A stretch of 55,336 bases of DNA, from IMG/VR virus record IMGVR_UViG_2541047870_000005. The stretch is one strand, 5' to 3'. Shown piece after piece: positions 21,806 to 30,957 of this stretch. Every line of letters starts with the position of its first letter. Positions within the stretch are counted from its first letter, which is position 1. The notes under the pieces were generated by a model that was not told the origin of the DNA, searched no databases, and saw only the letters and a program-made list of their open reading frames with translations. Position numbers and translations under genes: made by a program. The DNA is from a virus. Taxonomy: Duplodnaviria > Heunggongvirae > Uroviricota > Caudoviricetes.

Positions 21806-23572
21806 ATGAACACCACACTGACACCCGCAGATCTCGATCCCCGTCGGCAGGCCATGCTGCTGTACTTTCAGGGATACCGCGTAGCCCGCATTGCTGAAAT
21901 GCTGGGCGAGAAAGTTGCAACCGTTCACAGCTGGAAAAAACGCGACAAGTGGGGTGACTATGGGCCGCTGGATCAGATGCAGCTCACCACCGCCGCACGC
22001 TACTGCCAGCTCATTATGAAGGAGCACAAAGAAGGGAAAGATTTCAAAGAGATTGACCTGCTGGCGCGCCAGTCTGAGCGCCACGCGCGGATCGGCAAGT
22101 TTAACAATGGCGGCAACGAAGCCGACTTAAACCCTAACGTCGCCAACCGCAATAAAGGCCCACGCCGTCAGCCGGAAAAGAATGTTTTCACCGATGAGCA
22201 GATTGAGAAGCTGGAAGAAATCTTCCATTCTTCCATGTTCAACTACCAGCGCCACTGGTGGGAAGCAGGAAAAACCAACCGCATCCGCAACCTGCTGAAG
22301 TCACGCCAGATCGGCGCGACCTTTTACTTTGCCCGTGAAGCCCTGATTGACGCCCTGCTTACCGGACGTAACCAGATTTTCCTTTCTGCCAGTAAGGCAC
22401 AGGCCCATGTCTTCAAACAGTACATCATCGACTTTGCCAAAGAAGTGGAGGTGGAGCTGAAAGGCGATCCGATGGTGCTTCCTAACGGGGCCACGCTTTA
22501 CTTCCTCGGCACCAATGCCCGCACAGCCCAGAGTTATCACGGCAACCTGTATCTGGATGAATATTTCTGGATCCCAAAATTCCAGGAGTTGCGCAAAGTG
22601 GCTTCCGGTATGGCTATTCACAAGAAATGGCGACAGACCTATTTTTCCACGCCATCCAGCCTGACCCACAGTGCTTATCCGTTCTGGTCCGGTGCGCTGT
22701 TCAACCGTGGACGCAACAAAGCCGACAAGGTGGACATCGACCTGTCCCACAGCAATCTTGCCCCCGGCCTGCTGTGCGCAGACGGGCAATACCGCCAGAT
22801 AGTCACCGTGGAAGACGCGGTGCGCGGCGGCTGTAACCTGTTCGACCTTGACCAGTTGCGCATGGAGTACAGCCCGGATGAATACCAGAACCTGCTGATG
22901 TGCGAGTTCGTGGACGATCTCGCGTCCGTGTTTCCGCTCAGCGAACTGCAGGCGTGCATGGTGGACAGCTGGGAAGTCTGGACCGACTTTCATGCACTGG
23001 CCCTGCGCCCGTTTGGCTGGCGCGAAGTATGGATCGGTTATGACCCGGCGAAAGGTACGCAGAACGGCGACAGTGCCGGATGCGTGGTGGTGGCTCCGCC
23101 AGCCGTGCCGGGCGGTAAGTTCCGCATTCTTGAGCGTCACCAATGGCGCGGGATGGACTTCCGCGCCCAGGCGGACGCCATCAAAAAACTGACCGAACAG
23201 TACAACGTGACCTATATCGGCATCGACTCGACAGGTGTAGGTCACGGGGTTTATGAGAACGTGAAAGCGTTCTTTCCTGCCGTCCGGGAGTTTGTTTACA
23301 ACCCCAACGTTAAAAACGCCCTGGTACTCAAGGCCTACGACATTATCAGCCACCGCCGTCTGGAGTTTGACGCCGGGCACACCGACATTGCGCAGTCATT
23401 CATGGCAATCCGTCGCGCCACCACCGCCAGTGGCAACCGCCCAACCTATGAAGCCAGCCGCAGCGAAGAAGCCAGCCACGCCGATCTGGCCTGGGCAACA
23501 ATGCATGCACTGTTTAATGAACCGCTGCAGGGCGAATCCGCCAATACCAGCAATATTGTGGAGATTTTTTGA
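21806..23572 (+). CDS. P: Terminase ATPase (large) subunit gpP-like
   Basis: 588-aa ORF divergent from O, followed by the portal gene with a 4-bp overlap. Confidence 0.85.
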   Translation: MNTTLTPADLDPRRQAMLLYFQGYRVARIAEMLGEKVATVHSWKKRDKWGDYGPLDQMQLTTAARYCQLIMKEHKEGKDFKEIDLLARQSERHARIGKFNNGGNEADLNPNVANRNKGPRRQPEKNVFTDEQIEKLEEIFHSSMFNYQRHWWEAGKTNRIRNLLKSRQIGATFYFAREALIDALLTGRNQIFLSASKAQAHVFKQYIIDFAKEVEVELKGDPMVLPNGATLYFLGTNARTAQSYHGNLYLDEYFWIPKFQELRKVASGMAIHKKWRQTYFSTPSSLTHSAYPFWSGALFNRGRNKADKVDIDLSHSNLAPGLLCADGQYRQIVTVEDAVRGGCNLFDLDQLRMEYSPDEYQNLLMCEFVDDLASVFPLSELQACMVDSWEVWTDFHALALRPFGWREVWIGYDPAKGTQNGDSAGCVVVAPPAVPGGKFRILERHQWRGMDFRAQADAIKKLTEQYNVTYIGIDSTGVGHGVYENVKAFFPAVREFVYNPNVKNALVLKAYDIISHRRLEFDAGHTDIAQSFMAIRRATTASGNRPTYEASRSEEASHADLAWATMHALFNEPLQGESANTSNIVEIF

Positions 23573-24600
23573 TGGGAAAGAGTAAGAAAAACCGCGCTGC
23601 GGCGACGAATCAGCTCAAGCATAAAAGCCAGACTTCAGCCGAAGCATTCAGCTTCGGTGATCCCGTTCCTGTTCTGGACCGCCGCGAACTGCTGGACTAT
23701 GTGGAATGCGTACAAACAGATCGCTGGTATGAGCCTCCCGTCAGCTTTGACGGACTGGCGCGAACCTTCCGCGCCGCCGTGCATCACAGCTCACCGATTG
23801 CAGTGAAATGCAACATTCTGACCAGCACCTACATCCCTCACCCGCTGCTCAGCCAGCAGGCTTTTTCACGTTTTGTGCAGGACTATCTGGTATTTGGTAA
23901 CGCCTACCTGGAGAAACGCACGAACCGGTTCGGTGAAGTTATCGCCCTTGAGCCTGCTCTGGCAAAATACACCCGACGCGGGTTAGACCTGGATACCTAC
24001 TGGTTTGTGCAATACGGTATGACAACCCAGCCGTATCAGTTCACGAAAGGCAGCATTTTTCATCTGATGGAACCGGACATCAACCAAGAGATCTACGGCC
24101 TGCCAGGTTATCTTTCTGCCATCCCGTCAGCCCTGCTCAACGAGTCCGCCACACTGTTCCGCCGTAAGTATTACATCAACGGCAGCCATGCAGGTTTCAT
24201 CATGTACATGACCGATGCCGCGCAAAACCAGGAGGATGTGAACAACCTCCGCAATGCGATGAAAAGCGCCAAAGGTCCAGGCAACTTCCGCAACCTGTTT
24301 ATGTACTCGCCTAACGGCAAAAAGGACGGGCTTCAGATCATCCCATTGTCAGAAGTCGCGGCGAAGGATGAATTTCTTAATATCAAGAACGTGAGTCGGG
24401 ATGACATGATGGCAGCGCACCGCGTGCCGCCTCAGATGATGGGGATTATGCCTAATAATGTTGGGGGGTTTGGGGATGTGGAGAAGGCTAGTAAGGTTTT
24501 TGTCCGCAACGAGTTGATACCGCTGCAAAAGCGAATCAAAGAAATTAATGAATGGTTGAGTGATGAAATAATCTCTTTCCTACCATATGAATTACAATAA
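23569..24600 (+). CDS. Q: Portal protein gpQ-like
   Basis: 343-aa ORF, size and position of P2 Q. Confidence 0.85.
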   Translation: MMGKSKKNRAAATNQLKHKSQTSAEAFSFGDPVPVLDRRELLDYVECVQTDRWYEPPVSFDGLARTFRAAVHHSSPIAVKCNILTSTYIPHPLLSQQAFSRFVQDYLVFGNAYLEKRTNRFGEVIALEPALAKYTRRGLDLDTYWFVQYGMTTQPYQFTKGSIFHLMEPDINQEIYGLPGYLSAIPSALLNESATLFRRKYYINGSHAGFIMYMTDAAQNQEDVNNLRNAMKSAKGPGNFRNLFMYSPNGKKDGLQIIPLSEVAAKDEFLNIKNVSRDDMMAAHRVPPQMMGIMPNNVGGFGDVEKASKVFVRNELIPLQKRIKEINEWLSDEIISFLPYELQ

Positions 24601-24627
24601 AATAGGGCAGATACTGCCCTATTTTAA
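24601..24627. terminator. Bidirectional rho-independent terminator between convergent portal gene and cargo operon
   Basis: aaaa-tagggcag-atac-ctgccctat-tttt: 8-bp stem, 4-nt loop, A-tract on one side and T-tract on the other. Confidence 0.7.
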
Positions 24628-25476
24628 CCAAATATTATAATCCAATCTTTCTACGTATCTTGAAATAACGGCTAGAGCAATTGCTTGCCCTACACTTGTT
24701 AGTTCAATTCCTTGATAGTTGCTCTTTGAAAATTTTTCTAAAAATGCAGACACATGAGGGGCAACTAACTTAAGATTTGAAATATACGCACTCTTATCTT
24801 TTATATCAGTCGGATATTTATCCATGAAATAGTCTTCAACATCTATCCCTAAAAAAGTATTCCATGAACAAGCCCCTGCATATTGAATGTGATATATCTG
24901 GGCTTGAGACAAATTAAACCCATTAGTATACATTGGTTCAAGATTTCTAAAATTGCGCTCCAACAAATCCAATCGAACACCATTAACAGGATCTTTGATC
25001 TCAACATTCTTGAGAAGAAAAACTATCGTTATAAGTGATATTTGTTGCTGTGTTAACTTTGGAACTACAGTAACTGCCTCCGTTAAAACTATATCTCTAA
25101 AATCGTCATTGTTATTGGAGACTCGTTCAACTAACAACTGAGAAAGCACATCCATATTAGCTTTCTTTCCCTTCCTGGCTGATGACTTTAATGCCTCAGT
25201 CAATGTCGCCTGAACGTCCGGATCGCAAAATTTATCAATAATCAATCTATCAACGTTTTTTGTTAAATCCGAAACGACACGCTCTTCAAAATCTTTTGCA
25301 TTCTCTTGAGCTGCAGCATAAGCAACATCTTTCAATTTTGGGAACTGATTTTCGAAGAGAATGTTGAATAGTTCTCTAACCTCGGAAAACGACATCCCTG
25401 AAACATTTACATTATTTCCAGCTTGAATTGCATACGAATTATTACCTATTTGTTGCTTTTGTTTATCACTAAACAT
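24619..25476 (-). CDS. Hypothetical 285-aa protein, AT-rich cargo between portal gene and cos-like site; second gene of a two-gene operon
   Basis: Long AT-rich ORF 9 bp downstream of the small membrane-protein gene; no recognisable motifs. Confidence 0.7.
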   Translation of the reverse strand: MFSDKQKQQIGNNSYAIQAGNNVNVSGMSFSEVRELFNILFENQFPKLKDVAYAAAQENAKDFEERVVSDLTKNVDRLIIDKFCDPDVQATLTEALKSSARKGKKANMDVLSQLLVERVSNNNDDFRDIVLTEAVTVVPKLTQQQISLITIVFLLKNVEIKDPVNGVRLDLLERNFRNLEPMYTNGFNLSQAQIYHIQYAGACSWNTFLGIDVEDYFMDKYPTDIKDKSAYISNLKLVAPHVSAFLEKFSKSNYQGIELTSVGQAIALAVISRYVERLDYNIWLK

Positions 25477-25485
25477 ATATCCTCC

Positions 25486-25731
25486 TTATTTTTTATCACC
25501 TGTATTTATACAATCAATTTTAATATCACCGCCAGCCTGGACACCAATTGAATTATCACCAACTGATTGACTCATAGAATTATATTTATTTTTTGTAGTG
25601 ATAAGTAATCCAGCTAAAGCGCTAACTGCAGCCAAAAATGCAACAATAGAATCAAAACCAGGATCCATATAAAGCCATAATCCAGCAATCAATGCCAGTA
25701 TACATGTAATGACTATTGCAAAAATTTTCAT
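25486..25731 (-). CDS. Small membrane protein (81 aa, two predicted TM helices); first gene of the cargo operon
   Basis: Hydrophobic segments IFAIVITCILALIAGLWLY and IVAFLAAVSALAGLLIT; C-terminal motif resembles the N-terminus of the downstream protein. Confidence 0.6.
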   Translation of the reverse strand: MKIFAIVITCILALIAGLWLYMDPGFDSIVAFLAAVSALAGLLITTKNKYNSMSQSVGDNSIGVQAGGDIKIDCINTGDKK

Positions 25732-25785
25732 AAGTTCTCCTTCTAATGGAAGTGGTTATACCGAAAACAATTTCCTTTTACAACC

Positions 25786-25935
25786 ACGCTCAGCGCGCGC
25801 TCGTATCCCCGCCACGCCTGCCCGCTTTGTATAGCGGTTTTCATGCACTCGCATGGCATAAGGGAAACCTTGCCAGAACTGGCGACCCTCAGCGAAAACG
25901 ATCTTCAAACGATCATGCGGATTCATGCAGCATAG
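25786..25935. other. Putative prophage cos (packaging) region
   Basis: GC-rich non-coding segment homologous to 42890-43033; minus strand reads GGCGTGGCGGGGA, matching my recollection of the P2/186-family cohesive end. Confidence 0.5.
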
Positions 25936-26138
25936 ACAGGCACTACTGAGCAATAGCGCTTGAGTTCAGTCAGATATGAGTCCTCAATGTAATACTAATA
26001 CATCTTAACCGTTCATCATTATTCACATCGGGCTATGTAATTACAGAAAAACTTTTCACAATCAATTTTATACTGGATTATTTCAGTTTATTGTATAATT
26101 CATGACGCATGCAAATTGACATTAATTCAGGAGACAAA

Positions 26139-27050
26139 ATGACATTAATTGTAGCTGGTTTCGAAAAAGATGGAACAATTGTTTTTTGCGGGGACTCACT
26201 AATAACAACAAAAGCAAATGGAAGCACTGTAAAATTGACATCGTCCTTTAGAAAAATAATACCACTAGAAATTATTGTGCGAGTACCGGAAATCGATCCA
26301 AGTGGAAAAATCATAAATTACATTGAAAGCCTTTGCCAACATCGCTGCATGATTGCATTTGCAGGAAGCACGCTAGTTTCTCAACATATTATAAATTCTA
26401 TACAAGGTCATCTGAAACAAATAAAATACACATATGATTCTGGCACATATGACTATTCAGAAGGATGCATAAAGGGTGCTGGCTATAAGTTAATAATGGG
26501 TTGTGAAGATAACAAAAGCGTTGAGGAAACCTATTGGAACGAAGATATGTTTGTTGAGCCAGTAAAGAATGCGAACGAACTTATTAATAAAAATTTTCTA
26601 CGCAACGTCTTTAGCCACTGCATACAGAAAACCATGAATGAATTTTACATTAATATTAATGAGGAATTTAATCCAGAGTGGTTTGCAAGCGATTTCATTG
26701 TAGCTCTGTCTTGCTATGAGACTAAAAAAAACCATCTTTTTACCTTTAAAATGGAATTTAATGAGTCAGGGGTCAATCTTATAGAAAAAGAAATTAATAT
26801 CAATGAACTGGCAATAATTGGCATTTCAAGATATAGCGAAGAAATAATTCAAGCATATCAAACTCAAAAAGCGACCCTCAGTACATCTGAAATTCTCAGC
26901 CAAGAGATTACTAAAGCAATCATAGACAATGAAAGCATTGATCTTAGAGAAATAGGAGATCCTGTCGTATTAAAAAAATTCAATCAACATCGTGAATTAC
27001 GTGATGAGCAAAAACACTGGAGGTGCAATACTCCTCGAGAAAACCAATAA
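26139..27050 (+). CDS. HslV/proteasome beta-subunit-like (Ntn-hydrolase fold) protein, about 303 aa, AT-rich cargo gene
   Basis: SD aggag 5 nt upstream of ATG 26139 (ORF track starts at 26109); MTLIVAGFEKDGTIVFCGDSLIT...VKL...IAFAGST...LAIIGISRYSEEIIQAY parallels HslV [21 protein letters not shown]...KK...AGFAGGT...LIAIGSGGPYAQAAARAL (recalled from memory). Confidence 0.5.
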   Translation: MTLIVAGFEKDGTIVFCGDSLITTKANGSTVKLTSSFRKIIPLEIIVRVPEIDPSGKIINYIESLCQHRCMIAFAGSTLVSQHIINSIQGHLKQIKYTYDSGTYDYSEGCIKGAGYKLIMGCEDNKSVEETYWNEDMFVEPVKNANELINKNFLRNVFSHCIQKTMNEFYININEEFNPEWFASDFIVALSCYETKKNHLFTFKMEFNESGVNLIEKEININELAIIGISRYSEEIIQAYQTQKATLSTSEILSQEITKAIIDNESIDLREIGDPVVLKKFNQHRELRDEQKHWRCNTPRENQ

Positions 27051-27077
27051 ACGCCTCGCTATACTCGTTGTTCAACC

Positions 27078-27112
27078 TTGCTGACGCGAGAATAAAATTC
27101 TCACGTCAGCAA
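27078..27112. repeat. 13-bp inverted repeat (one mismatch) with 9-nt spacer between convergent genes
   Basis: ttgctgacgcgag-aataaaatt-ctcacgtcagcaa; no flanking T-tract, so terminator or protein-binding palindrome. Confidence 0.5.
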
Positions 27113-27123
27113 CGTTCCTGCTG

Positions 27124-27312
27124 CTAACCGAGAAGATCCATTGAGCGGTTGTATTCGTGGCTTCTGATTTTTGCCATGAGTTCATCAGTCAATTCAGAAA
27201 CCCACTGCAGAGCCAGCCCCTTCTCTTCATCATTACACTCACTAGCCGCTACAAGCTTAAGAAAAAAATCAATGCGCTGGAGCTTCAAAGACTCCAAAAA
27301 ATAGTCCTGCAT
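27124..27312 (-). CDS. Small hypothetical protein (62 aa) downstream of replication gene A
   Basis: Short AT-rich ORF; no motifs. Confidence 0.35.
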   Translation of the reverse strand: MQDYFLESLKLQRIDFFLKLVAASECNDEEKGLALQWVSELTDELMAKIRSHEYNRSMDLLG

Positions 27313-27464: not shown

Positions 27465-29879
27465 TTAATACAGATCCCGCCACTTATCATCTTCCTGCAA
27501 ACGCTGGTTCCGATAGAAGATACGCAGGCCTGCTCCTGACGGAATACTGCCGCCGCGAAGGAGTAAATCGACCTCTTTCTCGCTGCCATCAAATCCTCTG
27601 GACTTCAGTTCATAGACGAGCTGCTGTCGCTGATGGTCTGTAATTCGCTGTTTGTAGTCTTTACGCCGTTTCGGTTTCACCAGGCGTAACCTTGCAGCCA
27701 GTTCCCGGCGCTCTTTTTTGCTCATACTGTGCAGGTAATCGTGCAACTCCTTGTCATCCATGCGGGTAATGTCCGTTCTGGTATCCCCATCAGCTGATTT
27801 GTCTTTCCCTTGTTGGTTCAAATTTTCAGCAAGGGGACAGTTATTGCCACGAGTCCAAGGGGCGCAAGCGCCCTGGTCGGCTGCCGCCTCCTGAACGTCA
27901 ACGGCCTTACGAACCATTTTCCACTTCACCGCATGAGTGCAGATCTTGCCCTCTGCAATGGGTGACCAGATGCCATAAATACGAATACCGTGATCGCCAT
28001 AGGCGGTCGGTTCTTCGTTGATTTCATAAGCAGTTCTGATGAGGTGATATTTGCGGGGAACCAGTACGCCGCCCTGCTTCATGATGTAGGTGGCAAAACA
28101 ACCAGCATCAGCAGCAGCCAGGATTGCATCAAGGCGCGGGTTATCCAGTACCGGCGCACCTGCTTTTTTGTCCCCCTGTTGCCTTGCCGCCTGACCAGCC
28201 AGCAATCGCAGTTCACGGTAAGCCTGACGCCCCGGAATGCCAAAGAAGCGGAATTGCTGAACACGATGCAGAGACGCCCAGGCATTAACGTATTCAGCGT
28301 TATCACGCAGGGATTTACCCGTTTCCTTGCTGATCTCGCCAGCCAGACCACGCCCGTCAATGTTCTTACTGATGTATTTCGCGATGTAGCTTGTTGGCGT
28401 ACCTTTGCGCGGGTTTATCAGCTCAGACTTAAAGCGTGGTCCCGTGTTATTACCCAGCTCCTCGCGGTCTTCACGAATGGCAAACTTACGCAACAAAGCA
28501 GTAATGGTGCGGCGATCTTTTTTGCGCATAAAACACAACAGATGCCAGTGAACTGTACCGTCATGATGCGGCTCAGCCACCCGCACGCCATACCAGCGCA
28601 ATCCGGCTTTGTGCATCGCCTTACGAAATGCAGCAAACATGCCGACCAGATAATCACTGCTTTGTCTTACCGTCGCATTTGTCCAGGTCGGGTTGGGCCT
28701 GCCGTTATTTAGCGTGGAATGGAAACGTGACGGACAGGTGATGGTGTAGAAAACGGCGCAGTCACCGCGCATTTCCGCGATAAGCTCCAGACCTTTAACA
28801 CAGGCCATCATCTCATTGCGGCGATGCGCAGGGTTGCTGCTGCTGGCGTTTACCACATCCTCCATGTCCAGCGTGTCGCCGTCTTCGTTCACCAGTTCAT
28901 GAGAACGGAAAAACTCCAGTGACTTGCGGCGCTGCTCACGTTTATGCATCACGGCTTCATAGCTGACATAGGGAGATGCTTTTTTGCTGACCAGGCAAAC
29001 AGCACGCAACTGCTCTTCCCGCCATTCGCAACGCATCTTCCACAATTTCCGATACCACCAGTCGGCGCACAGCATACGCGCCAGCGACCCCGGAATGAGT
29101 TCATAGGGCACGGGTTTACGGCGGTTTCTTTTCCGGCGGAGTTGCTCAAACGCAGGCGGTATGACATCCAGTCGCAGGGTTTCTGCTGCCACCTTTTCCC
29201 ATGTCTTGCGGATTTCTTCTGGCTTAACATCATCGGTGGCATACAAATCGCCACAAGCAGCATCAAGGCACATGCTCATATGCGCAGCTACCAAGGTGGA
29301 CAGGCGTTTCACCTGATCCTGACTCATTTCAGGCAGAATCAGCAGGCCATCCAGCCCTTCATGGCTTGCCATAAAGCGAAAAGAAGTGGATAGCTGACTG
29401 TCGCGTACATGCTCCAGCCGTTCCAGACATGGCTTAATCGTCTCACGCAAATAGCGGGAATAAGCCTTTGGCCTGCCCAGGCTGCTGAAGTATTCAATAC
29501 GTTGCATCAGCGGCTTGCTGATATGGGAAGGCTGGGCGTTAACGTCCGCCAGAATGACCATGTCTGGATTAAAACGCTGCTGCTCATGCGCCAGCTTTGC
29601 CCAGCTAATGAGCTTATCCTGCTCCATTTCGCGTTGGACAGGATCACGGGATTCATTAAAGAAATAACGCTCCCAGACCTGAGCACTCAGTGCCTCGCGG
29701 CGCAGCTGTTCCTGCTCGTTATCGGCAGCGTACAGAGTGATCAGGTTTGAAAGCGCAGAAACCGGCGCGACTTCCGCCGGGTCCAGATAAGGGTTAATGG
29801 CCTTTTTCGGGCTGTTCCATGAGAATGCTGCGGCGGCCTCGTTAAAGCCGCTGCAGTTGTTCATATCAGCATGGCTCAT
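27465..29879 (-). CDS. A: Replication initiation protein gpA-like (rolling-circle endonuclease)
   Basis: 804-aa ORF in the position of P2/186 A; contains YIAKYISK-type tyrosine motif. Confidence 0.8.
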
Positions 29880-30733
29880 GCACGCACTCCGTTCACGGCA
29901 GAACTATCCACGCCACGCAAAGGATCAAATCCCACCCAGCAGCGCGCCCCGGAAACAGCGATGATTTCTGTTGCAGATTTACTCTCACCAGCTGCTACGC
30001 CGATGCTGCGTTTTGCCTTGATGTAGTGGTGAGTAAAATTGCGATACAGCGAACGGATCAGGGATGTGTCACTGTTAGAAACAATGACCGGATGTCCTTC
30101 AGATGCTCGATGTTCAAGAACGGATGCCAGGTGATACTGGTCATCTTCAGTGAAACCATCAGTGTGATAGCCGGAAAACGTACCGTCATACGGCGGATCG
30201 CAATACACCACATCCCCCGCCTTCAACATCGCCAGCGTTTCATCAAAGCTGGCGCAGATAAACGTTGCCCGCTGGGCTTTTTCTGCAAATGCGCGAATTT
30301 CTTTTTCAGGTAAATACGGATTTTTATAATTACCGTAGGGAATGTTGAAATGCCCGCTCTTGTTATAGCGATATAAACCACGGTAACCGTGACGATTGAG
30401 ATACAGGAAATATACCGCTTTCATGAAATCAGTAATTTCAGTTGAGTAATTAAACTCCTGCCTTATGTTGTAATAAGCTACCTCCCTGTTTGCGATCTCA
30501 AATAAAACTCTGGCGCGAGATATAAACGATTCACAATCAGCGGCAACCTTTTTATAGAGGTTGATTAAATCAGGATTAATATCCGCAACCAGATAGCTTG
30601 GATAATCCGTCTCCATCATCACCGCACAGGAACCCGCGAAAGGTTCAACCAGTCGCGGGCCAGCAGGAAGGTGTTTTTTCAGTTCGGACATAATTGCGGT
30701 TTTATTTCCCGCCCATTTCAGGATGGTGCTCAT
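29876..30733 (-). CDS. dam: Phage DNA adenine methyltransferase (Dam family)
   Basis: ILKWAGNK...LVEPFAGS...DIN.DLI.LY...DPPY motifs; start taken at the internal Met ([11 protein letters not shown]); the ORF track extends to 30793. Confidence 0.8.
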
Positions 30734-30957
30734 ACAGCACCTCCGTTGTAATGTTTGCCTTTCAGCTCTGCGATTTCCTGACAGGTAATGCAAAGCTGCA
30801 CACCCGGAATGGCACGACGGCGTGCTGGCGGAATTGGCGCTTCACACTCAACGCAAAGCACGCGGGACACGCCCGGTGTTTTGGCACGGGCAGCACGGAT
30901 ATGACGTTGGCGTTCTTCTTCAACTCGCTGCTGTACGAGATCCATTGCATCAGCCAT
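30730..30957 (-). CDS. TraR/DksA-family C4 zinc-finger protein
   Basis: 75-aa ORF with CVEC...CITC four-cysteine motif. Confidence 0.7.
   Translation of the reverse strand: MADAMDLVQQRVEEERQRHIRAARAKTPGVSRVLCVECEAPIPPARRRAIPGVQLCITCQEIAELKGKHYNGGAV

What the first reader, a model, noticed from the sequence alone, without database searches (positions are those of the whole stretch)
26109..27050. HslV/proteasome-like Ntn-hydrolase gene as stand-alone cargo between cos and replication gene A
An AT-rich gene with its own strong ribosome-binding site sits in the variable cos-proximal region of the prophage, divergent from the neighbouring cargo operon. From Met-Thr onward it parallels HslV/proteasome beta subunits: Thr directly after the initiator Met, a GD about 17 residues in, a Lys near position 31, an AFAGS block and an IIGIS block near the position of the HslV GSGG loop. 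It is about 300 aa against about 176 for HslV. A proteasome-like protease carried as phage accessory cargo is not a system I know to be described; it could act with host HslU, either in defence or against a host factor.
Basis: partly seen in the sequence, partly recalled or inferred. Interest (0 to 1): 0.8.

Follow-up and report, generated by a model that had tools for sequence, protein, structure and literature searches.

The report
Proteasome-like protease in prophage defence slot
A P2/186-like prophage carries a self-contained one-gene cassette for a previously unnamed, proteasome/HslV-like threonine protease in the slot where phage P2 keeps its anti-phage genes tin and old, which makes it a testable candidate for a new kind of phage-defence enzyme, although no function has been shown.

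Summary

In 103 full-length homologues:
- the N-terminus is Met-Thr in 97 and Met-Ser in 3;
- Asp19 is 99% conserved and Lys39 100%.

Pfam, NCBIfam, PADLOC and PDB sequence searches find nothing. PHROGs has it only as an unknown-function family.

The gene is a discrete 1,098-bp, 33%-GC cassette (25952-27049). It sits in the P2 tin/old slot in the same orientation. Sibling prophages carry the validated defence gene PD-T4-7 or the candidate PDC-S42 in that slot. Homologues occur almost only on mobile elements, often near known defence genes. None has an AAA+ partner.

The fold and catalytic competence are well supported. A defence role is inferred, at about 0.45. Partnership with HslU is unsupported. 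Phage-borne proteasome homologues were already catalogued (Fuchs et al. 2021). The new elements are therefore the architecture (two family-wide insertions) and the link to a defence hotspot, not the existence of such proteins.

The parts
25782..25951 (.). Conserved cos-region block of the P2/186-like phage. It forms the left boundary of the cassette and is not part of the cargo.
   Evidence: blastn against three sibling prophages (no cargo here, or a different one) aligns window 25782/25786/25793 to 25928/25938/25951 at about 83% identity. The GC-rich motif CCCCGCCACGCC at about 25805-25817 resembles the P2/186 cohesive-end core (recalled from memory). Exact P2 and 186 cos 19-mers are not found.
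25952..27049 (+). The cargo cassette: 1,098 bp, about 33% GC, comprising a 5' leader/promoter region and one gene.
   Evidence: In the cargo-less relative E. coli JP538 (L035), the flanks 25782-25951 and 27050-27116 are adjacent (subject 1669|1671). The same cassette is 99.4% identical in prophages whose Q-side cargo differs. GC profile.
26094..26099 (+). Perfect -10 hexamer TATAAT with no recognisable -35. Candidate promoter of the cassette.
   Evidence: Read directly from the sequence. The consensus scan did not call a full sigma-70 promoter here, so this is tentative.
26129..26133 (+). Shine-Dalgarno AGGAG, 5 nt before the start codon.
   Evidence: Sequence. A GGAG/GAGG motif is the only conserved upstream element in homologous loci.
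26139..27050 (+). Gene for a 303-aa proteasome-like (T1 Ntn-hydrolase fold) protein. The stop codon is included.
26142..26144 (+). Codon for Thr2, the predicted N-terminal nucleophile Thr1 after Met removal.
   Evidence: Thr in 99 and Ser in 3 of 103 homologues; 97 of 102 begin Met-Thr. Removal of Met before Thr by methionine aminopeptidase is established knowledge but is inferred here.
26193..26195 (+). Codon for Asp19, equivalent to Asp17 of HslV/20S beta.
   Evidence: Asp in 102 of 103 homologues. hhalign aligns it to HslV Asp17. Four residues later, position 23 is Thr or Ser in 102 of 103, as is Thr21 in HslV.
26253..26255 (+). Codon for Lys39, equivalent to Lys33 of HslV/20S beta.
   Evidence: Lys in 103 of 103 homologues. 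hhalign aligns it to HslV Lys33.
26268..26339 (+). Residues 44-67: a family-wide beta-hairpin insertion between strands S3 and S4, next to the active site.
   Evidence: Treated as a 22-residue gap against HslV by hhalign. Model strands 47-52 and 58-63 have pLDDT of about 90. The K39-to-G76 spacing is 35-40 residues in all 103 homologues, against 12-15 in HslV and 20S.
26355..26372 (+). AFAGST motif (residues 73-78) at the end of strand S4 and start of helix H1. This is the oxyanion-hole region.
   Evidence: G76 is conserved in 102 of 103; A73 is Ala 89, Gly 8, Ser 5. The motif aligns with HslV GFAGGT. Which residue matches Gly47 (20S) / Gly45 (HslV) is unresolved.
26418..26588 (+). Residues 94-150: a family-wide insertion between helices H1 and H2, made of a long beta-hairpin plus short helices. 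It contains the conserved Cys122.
   Evidence: Model elements E95-105, E110-119, H126-129 and H141-147 lie between H78-93 and H151-171. The segment is 43-58 residues long in all 103 homologues. Cys122 is 83% conserved.
26820..26822 (+). Codon for Gly228, the invariant glycine at the position of the HslV/20S G-S-G loop.
   Evidence: Gly in 103 of 103 homologues. The following residue is hydrophobic, and Ser230 is only 29% conserved, so the Ser129 equivalent is not conserved.
27078..27112 (.). Strong hairpin between the convergent cassette gene and the phage 62-aa gene. It belongs to the conserved phage block 27050-27116, not to the cassette.
   Evidence: RNA fold -24.5 kcal/mol, z -5.0, with 0 of 200 shuffles as stable. 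The block is conserved in cargo-less relatives.

Best explanation
The gene encodes a catalytically competent, stand-alone threonine N-terminal-nucleophile peptidase of the proteasome/HslV (T1) fold. It belongs to an unnamed family found on mobile elements.

Proposed mechanism:
- Shown: the cassette is autonomous. It has its own RBS and AT-rich leader, and it is transcribed from cos towards gpA, like P2 old-tin.
- Inferred: it is expressed from the lysogen.
- Inferred: methionine aminopeptidase removes Met1 and exposes Thr as the nucleophile. Asp19 and Lys39 complete the proteasome-type triad.
- Shown to exist, role inferred: two family-specific insertions take over substrate gating or recognition, so no AAA+ unfoldase is needed. 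One is a hairpin beside the active site. The other is a ~55-aa element between H1 and H2 on the outward face.
- Inferred from location and neighbours only: the biological role is prophage-encoded exclusion of other phages. The protease would cleave a phage protein, or a host protein needed by the invader, in the manner of a single-gene defence or abortive-infection effector.

Confidence by part: about 0.85-0.9 that it is an active T1-fold Ntn hydrolase carried as stand-alone cargo, and about 0.45 that its role is anti-phage defence. The overall figure given is for the whole statement.
For: Fold:
- AF2 model pLDDT 85, pTM 0.85.
- Foldseek against PDB and BFVD agrees.

Catalytic set across 103 homologues:
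- Met-Thr or Met-Ser N-terminus in 100 of 102. T2 96% (plus 3% Ser), D19 99%, K39 100%, T/S23 99%, G76 99%, G228 100%.
- hhalign maps D19, K39 and AFAGST onto HslV D17, K33 and GFAGGT.

Functional constraint: dN/dS 0.09-0.20.

Autonomy:
- The cassette is exactly 25952-27049 when compared with a cargo-less relative.
- The identical protein sits in the same slot next to four different Q-side cargos: Vpar_1526+TM, a PADLOC Hp1/GAPS4-like system, retron II-A, and retron I-C RT-Toprim.

Defence inference:
- The gpA-gpQ cos-proximal locus is the published P2 defence hotspot (PMC9122126).
- In P2, tin and old occupy this same A-side slot in the same orientation.
- Of 8 sampled sibling prophages, one has no cargo in this slot and seven carry other cargo. 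One of the seven is the single-gene system PD-T4-7 (E 3e-144), also transcribed from cos towards gpA. One is the PADLOC candidate PDC-S42 (E 7e-44).
- Homologues lie on prophages, satellite-like or ICE-like islands and plasmids. Their neighbours include ABC-3C, ApeA, a NACHT protein, type I R-M, Mrr, AbiEii and TA genes.
- 6 of 8 randomly chosen unknown P4 hotspot loci were functional defences in a 2026 preprint (10.64898/2026.02.27.708500).
Against: - No phenotype, no substrate and no oligomeric state is known.
- No PADLOC model matches.
- Most alternative cargos in this slot are themselves uncharacterised: 5 of 7 sampled cargo sets have no PADLOC hit.
- The same preprint's machine-learning score flags only 15-32% of unknown P2 hotspot proteins as antiviral.
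- One homologue (Dickeya zeae) sits in an ordinary-looking chromosomal context.
- Sequence-profile evidence for proteasome homology is sub-threshold. hhalign gives E 0.002-0.003 and probability 10-13%. Pfam PF00227 hits only 2 of 103 members, at E 0.08. PDB profile searches give no hit.
- The Ser129 equivalent is not conserved, and the oxyanion-Gly equivalence is ambiguous (A73 or G76).
- Model coordinates could not be inspected, so the active-site geometry was not checked.
Confidence: 0.45

Rival explanations
1. One reading: an alternative HslV that docks onto the host's HslU ATPase. It would replace or compete with chromosomal HslV and redirect ATP-dependent proteolysis.
Against: - 20S beta and Anbu match the fold as well as or better than HslV does.
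- The HslV HMMs (Pfam PF00227, NCBIfam) do not recognise the protein.
- It is 303 aa against 176.
- Fuchs et al. state that H3/H4 mediate ring-ring contacts. The family-wide H1/H2 insertion therefore lies on the opposite, outward face, where HslU docks on HslV. That placement is my inference and coordinates were not inspected.
- No AAA+ neighbour occurs in any context examined. Fuchs et al. also found no AAA+ co-occurrence for their new homologues.
- One subfamily pairs with a J-domain protein, which points to DnaK rather than HslU.
Confidence: 0.08
2. An active protease, but not a defence gene. It would be a moron serving the prophage or host in another way. Possibilities are counter-defence, degradation of a host regulator, control of prophage induction (it sits where relatives carry the DinI-like gene), or a fitness or virulence factor.
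For: - The DinI-like gene present in sibling prophages is missing in the window.
- Most cargos in this slot have no known function.
- Lytic-phage proteasome homologues (PPH, AAH) exist and are not obviously defensive.
- BFVD holds phage HslV-like proteins.
- The Serratia homologue sits in a different moron slot between gpV and gpS.
- The Dickeya homologue is chromosomal.
Against: - Homologues also occur on plasmids and ICE-like islands that have no lysogeny circuit. That argues against a phage-specific regulatory role.
- The slot holds tin/old in P2 and PD-T4-7 in a sibling prophage.
- Known defence genes recur near homologues.
Confidence: 0.3
3. An Ntn enzyme that is not a general protease. 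It could be a sequence-specific protein ligase or transpeptidase like connectase, or an amidase acting on a non-protein substrate.
For: - An insertion between S3 and S4 is the signature site of connectase, where it covers the active site and confers specificity (PMC8665760). This family has a universal insertion at that site.
- The Ser129 equivalent is not conserved.
Against: - The insertion here is a beta-hairpin, not connectase's two helices.
- A J-domain partner in one subfamily suggests protein substrates delivered by a chaperone.
Confidence: 0.12
4. A decaying or chance ORF in AT-rich filler DNA with only superficial HslV-like motifs.
For: AT-rich DNA. No hits in Pfam, NCBIfam, PADLOC or PDB sequence searches. 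Some database copies are split into 81-aa and 184-aa fragments.
Against: - 117 representatives at the 50%-identity level.
- dN/dS 0.09-0.2.
- Invariant catalytic residues.
- The identical protein appears in 283 collection blocks, and cluster members come from E. coli, Klebsiella, Salmonella and Enterobacter.
Confidence: 0.02

Closest known systems
HslV (ClpQ), peptidase of the HslUV ATP-dependent protease (MEROPS T1B)
   Different: - 303 aa against 176.
- Two family-wide insertions, at S3/S4 and H1/H2.
- Not recognised by the HslV/Proteasome HMMs.
- No HslU/AAA+ neighbour.
- The Ser124/Ser129 equivalent is not conserved.
- Carried on mobile elements rather than in the heat-shock hslVU operon.
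20S proteasome beta subunits, Anbu and BPH
   Different: No propeptide. No alpha-type partner. The insertions are absent from those families. Oligomeric state is unknown. Sequence similarity is below detection by HMMER.
The 22 uncharacterised proteasome-homologue families of Fuchs, Alva & Lupas 2021 (PMC8665760), especially GPH (gammaproteobacterial), the PMI variants (multiple insertions), and the phage-borne PPH and AAH
   Same: - Divergent proteasome-like proteins that keep Thr1/Asp17/Lys33.
- No propeptide and no AAA+ partner.
- Spread by horizontal transfer and by phages.
- Every member of this family that carries an organism name is from Gammaproteobacteria, as for GPH.
- An S3/S4 insertion is reported for PMI-5 and PMI-6.
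   Different: - PPH is about 140 aa and lacks H2; this protein is 303 aa and has H2.
- An H1-H2 insertion is not among the insertion sites that paper lists.
- The paper reports no genomic context suggestive of function, whereas here the context is a defence hotspot.
- Whether this family is GPH, a PMI type, or uncatalogued could not be tested.
P2 tin and old, and PD-T4-7 (cargo of the same prophage slot)
   Same: - Same position between gpA and cos.
- tin-old and PD-T4-7 share the orientation (promoter near cos, transcribed towards gpA).
- tin and old are accessory lysogenic-conversion genes, and PD-T4-7 is a single-gene cassette.
   Different: Unrelated proteins. Old is a nuclease/ATPase and Tin blocks growth of T-even phages. 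Their anti-phage activity is experimentally established; this gene's is not.
Connectase (archaeal proteasome-like protein ligase)
   Different: A much weaker structural match. Connectase lacks H1/H2 and has a two-helix insertion. It is restricted to methanogenic archaea.
Lit protease of prophage e14 (a single-protein, protease-based abortive-infection system)
   Same: Functional analogy only (from my own knowledge): a prophage-encoded single protease that blocks a superinfecting phage by cleaving a specific target.
   Different: Lit is a zinc metalloprotease that cleaves EF-Tu. There is no structural or sequence relationship. The analogy is a hypothesis, not a finding.

Membership tests
Proteasome-like (T1) Ntn hydrolases, as defined in Fuchs et al. 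2021 | Proteasome-type alpha-beta-beta-alpha sandwich with strands S1-S10 and helices H1-H4 | tested here: met
Proteasome-like (T1) Ntn hydrolases, as defined in Fuchs et al. 2021 | N-terminal nucleophile Thr1 (or Ser1) | tested here: met
   Met-Thr in 97 and Met-Ser in 3 of 102 full-length homologues. Exposure by Met removal is inferred and not tested.
Proteasome-like (T1) Ntn hydrolases, as defined in Fuchs et al. 2021 | Asp17 and Lys33 equivalents | tested here: met
   D19 in 102 of 103 and K39 in 103 of 103. They align with HslV D17 and K33.
Proteasome-like (T1) Ntn hydrolases, as defined in Fuchs et al. 2021 | Gly47 (oxyanion hole) | tested here: inconclusive
   G76 is 99% conserved at the end of S4. 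However, hhalign places HslV Gly45 opposite A73 (Ala 86%, Gly 8%, Ser 5%) and HslV Gly48 opposite G76.
Proteasome-like (T1) Ntn hydrolases, as defined in Fuchs et al. 2021 | Significant sequence-profile match to the family (Pfam PF00227 or PDB members) | tested here: not met
   No Pfam hit for the window protein. PF00227 hits only 2 of 103 members, at E 0.08. Profile searches of PDB sequences find nothing at E<=10. hhalign E 0.002-0.003, probability 10-13%.
20S beta / HslV active-site shell | Ser129 (HslV Ser124) after the conserved Gly, hydrogen-bonding Thr1 | tested here: not met
   G228 is invariant. The next residue is Met, Ile, Leu or Val, and Ser230 is only 29% conserved.
HslV proper | Compact subunit of about 175 aa without insertions, recognised by HslV models | tested here: not met
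   303 aa. Insertions at residues 44-67 and 94-150. No NCBIfam or Pfam HslV hit.
HslV proper | Partnership with HslU (adjacent hslU; docking of HslU C-termini) | tested here: not met
   No AAA+ gene next to the gene in the window, or in about 12 distinct homologue contexts. Physical docking is not testable with these tools.
HslV / 20S / BPH self-compartmentalising rings | Hexameric or heptameric double-ring assembly | not testable with these tools
   Only monomer prediction is available.
GPH / PMI / other families of the Fuchs et al. 2021 catalogue | Sequence membership in one of the 22 clusters (representatives such as WP_152342571.1 for GPH) | not testable with these tools
None of the accessions listed for the clusters looked up coincides with a representative accession named in the paper. 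The gammaproteobacterial distribution fits GPH.
PPH (proteasome homologue of phages and their hosts) | About 140 residues, lacking helix H2 | tested here: not met
   303 aa, with a long helix at 151-171 in the H2 position. Description of PPH.
Anti-phage defence systems of the P2 cos-proximal hotspot | Location in the gpA-gpQ variable locus next to cos | tested here: met
   Cassette 25952-27049 lies between the cos block and the 62-aa gene/gpA. Hotspot definition from PMC9122126. tin and old occupy the same slot in P2. PD-T4-7 and PDC-S42 occupy the same slot in siblings.
Anti-phage defence systems of the P2 cos-proximal hotspot | Match to a known or candidate defence model | tested here: not met
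   PADLOC-DB v2.0.0: no hit.
Anti-phage defence systems of the P2 cos-proximal hotspot | Protection against phage infection | not testable with these tools
   Requires cloning and plaque assays.

The most novel reading that the evidence does not exclude
This is the first anti-phage immune effector built on the proteasome (T1 threonine-peptidase) fold. It would be a single-gene, AAA+-independent defence whose two built-in insertions gate or target the active site. It travels as a 1.1-kb cassette between hotspots of P2-like phages, satellites, ICEs and plasmids.
Probability: 0.4. Interest if true: 0.8.

Novelty: new variant of a known kind. Interest (0 to 1): 0.62.

Why it matters
Bacterial proteasome homologues beyond HslV form a large set of families without a known function (Fuchs et al. 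2021). Those authors found no informative genomic context. This family has one. It is a self-contained cassette in the tin/old slot of a P2-like prophage. It is interchangeable with validated defence genes, and elsewhere it sits in defence-rich mobile islands.

That makes an open question directly testable: what do orphan proteasome homologues do? The experiment is simple. Clone 1.1 kb, challenge with phages, and mutate Thr2 and Lys39.

If the result is positive, it would add a threonine protease to the known repertoire of immune effectors. It would also give a natural example of a proteasome-fold enzyme working without an unfoldase. If negative, the family remains a well-defined, easily expressed model for the structural diversity of this fold.

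Tried and rejected
Searches that found nothing for the protein:
- Pfam, NCBIfam and PADLOC scans.
- Scanning all 103 family members against Pfam gave only sub-threshold PF00227 hits in 2 members.
- Profile searches of PDB sequences with 20- and 103-sequence alignments: no hit even at E<=10.
- hhalign against E. coli HslV and against a 15-sequence HslV alignment gave the same residue mapping but a non-significant score. The HslV set returned by the search was too uniform (86-99% identity) to help.

Searches for related loci:
- With the close alignment, the genome-contig scan found no relative. Viral contigs gave two near-identical P2-like contigs.
- The afdb50 fold library was unavailable.
- The gene is absent from 5,426 complete RefSeq E. 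coli genomes, even with the sensitive ('distant') blastn mode, and from 50,697 phage records by tblastn.

Sequence features checked:
- Exact P2 and 186 cos 19-mers are not found at up to 3 mismatches. cos is placed by conservation instead.
- A LexA box upstream (as for 186 tum) was looked for by eye and not seen.
- No full sigma-70 promoter was called.

Conserved partner gene rejected. Upstream neighbours differ between subfamilies: none, a 154-aa protein, MauJ-like, DUF2513, J-domain, Fic, or Mrr.

I first mislabelled the 62-aa gene (27124-27312) as DinI-like. Annotated relatives show that it is a separate conserved hypothetical gene, and that the DinI-like gene is absent from the window.

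Literature searches for a proteasome-like, HslV-like or Ntn defence protein found nothing relevant.
Full report
**1. What is in the sequence**

The ORF listed at 26109-27050 (+) exists. Its biological start is ATG 26139:
- AGGAG lies at 26129-26133, 5 nt upstream.
- 97 of 102 full-length homologues begin Met-Thr and 3 begin Met-Ser.
- Gene callers in eight other assemblies call the 303-aa form.
- In an alignment of upstream regions from four other genera, only the RBS and ATG-ACx-TTA are conserved.

The gene has about 33% GC. It lies between phage genes of about 52-55% GC.

The window is a P2/186-like prophage. Terminase P is at 21806-23572 and portal Q at 23569-24600. Replication gene A is at 27465-29879 and a Dam-like methylase at 29876-30793.

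**2. Is the HslV/proteasome resemblance real?**

Sequence libraries are silent. There is no Pfam, NCBIfam or PADLOC hit. Profile searches of PDB sequences find nothing. PHROGs holds the protein only as phrog_25719, of unknown function (E 4e-133).

Structure is decisive:
- With a 20-sequence alignment, AlphaFold2 gives pLDDT 85.4 and pTM 0.85.
- Foldseek against the PDB and against viral models agrees.

An exhaustive HMMER search of 1.84 billion representatives finds 117 family members. In the 103 full-length sequences (102 homologues plus the window protein), conservation is as follows:

| Position | Conservation |
|---|---|
| Thr2 | 96%, plus 3% Ser |
| Asp19 | 99% |
| Ser20 | 95% |
| Thr/Ser23 | 99% |
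| Lys39 | 100% |
| Gly76 | 99% |
| Gly228 | 100% |

hhalign against E. coli HslV aligns Asp19 with Asp17, Lys39 with Lys33, and AFAGST with GFAGGT. It treats residues 44-65 as an insertion. The score itself is not significant (E 0.002-0.003).

The catalytic-lysine equivalent is K39, not the lysine near position 31.

Two deviations remain:
- The Ser129/Ser124 equivalent is not conserved.
- It is unclear whether A73 or G76 corresponds to the oxyanion glycine.

dN/dS of 0.09-0.20 shows purifying selection.

**3. Architecture**

Compared with HslV and 20S beta, every family member has two insertions:
- A beta-hairpin between S3 and S4. The K39-to-G76 spacing is 35-40 residues, against 12-15.
- A 43-58-residue element between H1 and H2, made of a long hairpin and short helices.

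The S1-S2 loop varies from 5 to 76 residues. What looked like N-terminal extensions in the search table are insertions after a conserved MTL(V/I)IAG strand.

Cys122, Cys192, His83, His91 and His160 are each conserved in 75-88% of the family. A metal site is possible but untested.

**4. The gene is a discrete, autonomous cassette in the tin/old slot**

Boundaries:
- blastn against a cargo-less relative (E. coli JP538) shows that window 25782-25951 (cos block) and 27050-27116 are adjacent there.
- The cargo is therefore exactly 25952-27049, 1,098 bp.
- A stable hairpin at 27078-27112 (-24.5 kcal/mol, z -5) lies in the conserved phage block, between the convergent genes.

Independence from the neighbouring cargo:
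- The identical protein occurs in 283 collection blocks.
- In every one of the eight places shown it occupies the same slot of a P2/186-like prophage.
- The slot on the other side of cos holds four different cargos: Vpar_1526/LPO_1073 plus an 81-aa membrane protein (as in the window), a PADLOC Hp1/GAPS4-like system, a type II-A retron, or a type I-C RT-Toprim retron.
- The gene is therefore independent of the neighbouring operon.

The slot itself:
- In phage P2 the order is A, orf91, tin, old, cosR. The old-tin transcript starts near cos and runs towards A. That is the same slot and orientation as here.
- Rousset et al. 2022 defined the gpA-gpQ cos-proximal locus as a defence hotspot (PMC9122126).
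- I sampled this slot in 8 sibling prophages. One has no cargo. One carries PD-T4-7 (E 3e-144, same orientation). One carries PDC-S42 (E 7e-44). Five carry cargo with no PADLOC hit.
- None of the 1,291 complete E. coli genomes that carry this phage backbone has the cassette.

**5. Homologues elsewhere**

All database names are 'hypothetical protein'. Cluster members come from E. coli, Klebsiella, Salmonella and Enterobacter. Contexts examined:

| Host or source | Setting | Notable neighbours |
|---|---|---|
| Enterobacter and relatives | ICE-like island | ABC-3C, DEAD/ResIII helicase |
| Enterobacter/Citrobacter | AlpA/ORF6N islands | a NACHT protein in one locus |
| Metagenomic contig | beside an integrase | ApeA |
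| Metagenomic contig | beside a resolvase | type I R-M; MauJ-like gene upstream |
| Metagenomic contig | relaxase-bearing element | Fic |
| Acinetobacter | plasmid | DUF2513 immediately upstream, TA pair |
| Vibrio | plasmid | HigB family toxin, many small hypothetical genes |
| Enterobacteriaceae | ~330-kb plasmids | J-domain protein upstream |
| Yersinia | plasmid-like element | Mrr-type nuclease upstream, AbiEii nearby |
| Serratia | P2-like prophage, between gpV and gpS | three unknown genes |
| Dickeya zeae | chromosome | ordinary metabolic genes |

No AAA+ partner appears anywhere, and no partner is conserved across the family.

**6. Comparison with what is known**

Fuchs, Alva & Lupas (2021, PMC8665760) described 22 uncharacterised proteasome-homologue families. 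They are defined by the fold plus Thr1/Ser1, Asp17, Lys33 and Gly47. They have no propeptides, no AAA+ partners and no informative context. Among them are the phage-borne PPH (~140 aa) and AAH, the gammaproteobacterial GPH, and the multi-insertion PMI types.

This family meets the fold and triad criteria. It is clearly neither HslV nor PPH.

I found no paper linking any proteasome-like protein to phage defence.

**7. Most likely mechanism**

- Shown: a conserved, selected, stand-alone T1-fold protein with an intact Thr/Asp/Lys set, carried as an autonomous cassette in a defence slot.
- Inferred: Met removal exposes Thr1. The enzyme is a peptidase. The insertions replace an unfoldase by gating or selecting substrates. 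The H1/H2 insertion should lie on the outward face, because Fuchs et al. assign ring-ring contacts to H3/H4.
- Speculative: it excludes superinfecting phages by cleaving a phage or host protein.

I put about 0.85-0.9 on 'active T1-fold Ntn hydrolase as stand-alone cargo' and about 0.45 on a defence role. The HslU-dependent model gets about 0.08, another moron function about 0.3, and a ligase or amidase chemistry about 0.12.

**8. Verdict**

The novelty is moderate. Orphan proteasome homologues, some phage-borne, are known. This architecture and its placement in a validated defence slot are not described in the literature I could search, and they make the function directly testable.

Noticed in passing
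window 24619-25731 (- strand): A two-gene module lies between portal gene Q and cos. It consists of an LPO_1073/Vpar_1526-family protein (285 aa, NCBIfam E 1e-72) and an 81-aa predicted membrane protein. In sibling prophages the same slot holds retrons or a GAPS4-like system, so this pair is itself a candidate defence system. PADLOC has no model for the large protein.
   Followed up: partly
window 27117-27135, compared with L034 2458-2691 and L035 1741-1974: The DinI-like gene sits between the 62-aa gene and cos in eight of the nine sibling prophages inspected. It is absent from this prophage (and from L033). This could change SOS inducibility.
   Followed up: partly
L024 6003-7981 (Citrobacter freundii plasmid p1_140542); also L021: One subfamily of the proteasome-like protein has the motif AFAGGKDTAHH. 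It occurs on ~330-kb plasmids of Enterobacteriaceae (most of the 18 plasmid hits are typed conjugative). It is always preceded, 84 bp upstream, by a 304-aa J-domain (DnaJ) protein. This suggests delivery of substrates by DnaK/Hsp70.
   Followed up: partly
L040 7572-11447 (Serratia marcescens P2-like prophage): A 69%-identical homologue sits in a different variable site of a P2-like phage, between baseplate gene V and tail gene S. It is accompanied by three unannotated genes (254, 79 and 343 aa) with no PADLOC hits.
   Followed up: partly
window 26139-27050: residues His83, His91, Cys122, His160, Cys192: Five potential metal ligands are each conserved in 75-88% of the family (Cys/Cys together in 79 of 103 sequences; His/His/His together in 70 of 103). 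They might tether the H1/H2 insertion to the core as a metal site or a disulfide. This could not be checked without model coordinates.
   Followed up: no
Protein cluster of the window protein (P0138 81 aa and P0139 184 aa, consecutive accessions, about 25 contigs): Some E. coli assemblies carry the gene split into two adjacent fragments. It is apparently a frameshifted copy, so the cassette is occasionally inactivated.
   Followed up: no
L022 6638-7984 (Acinetobacter plasmid pMsp65): A distant homologue (30% identity) starts 4 bp after a DUF2513 gene. It lies next to a Phd/RelE pair and close to a helicase + DUF4391 + methyltransferase cluster.
   Followed up: no
L046 622-1680 (E. coli GN02461) and L043 1038-1931 (E. 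coli VG12A2): In the same A-side slot of sibling prophages, genes annotated only as 'hypothetical protein' match PD-T4-7 (E 3e-144) and PDC-S42 (E 7e-44). RefSeq annotation therefore hides known and candidate defence genes in this slot.
   Followed up: yes
L032 6327-8741: In one assembly that carries the cassette, replication gene A is split into 475-aa and 315-aa ORFs. This suggests a defective prophage that still retains the cassette.
   Followed up: no
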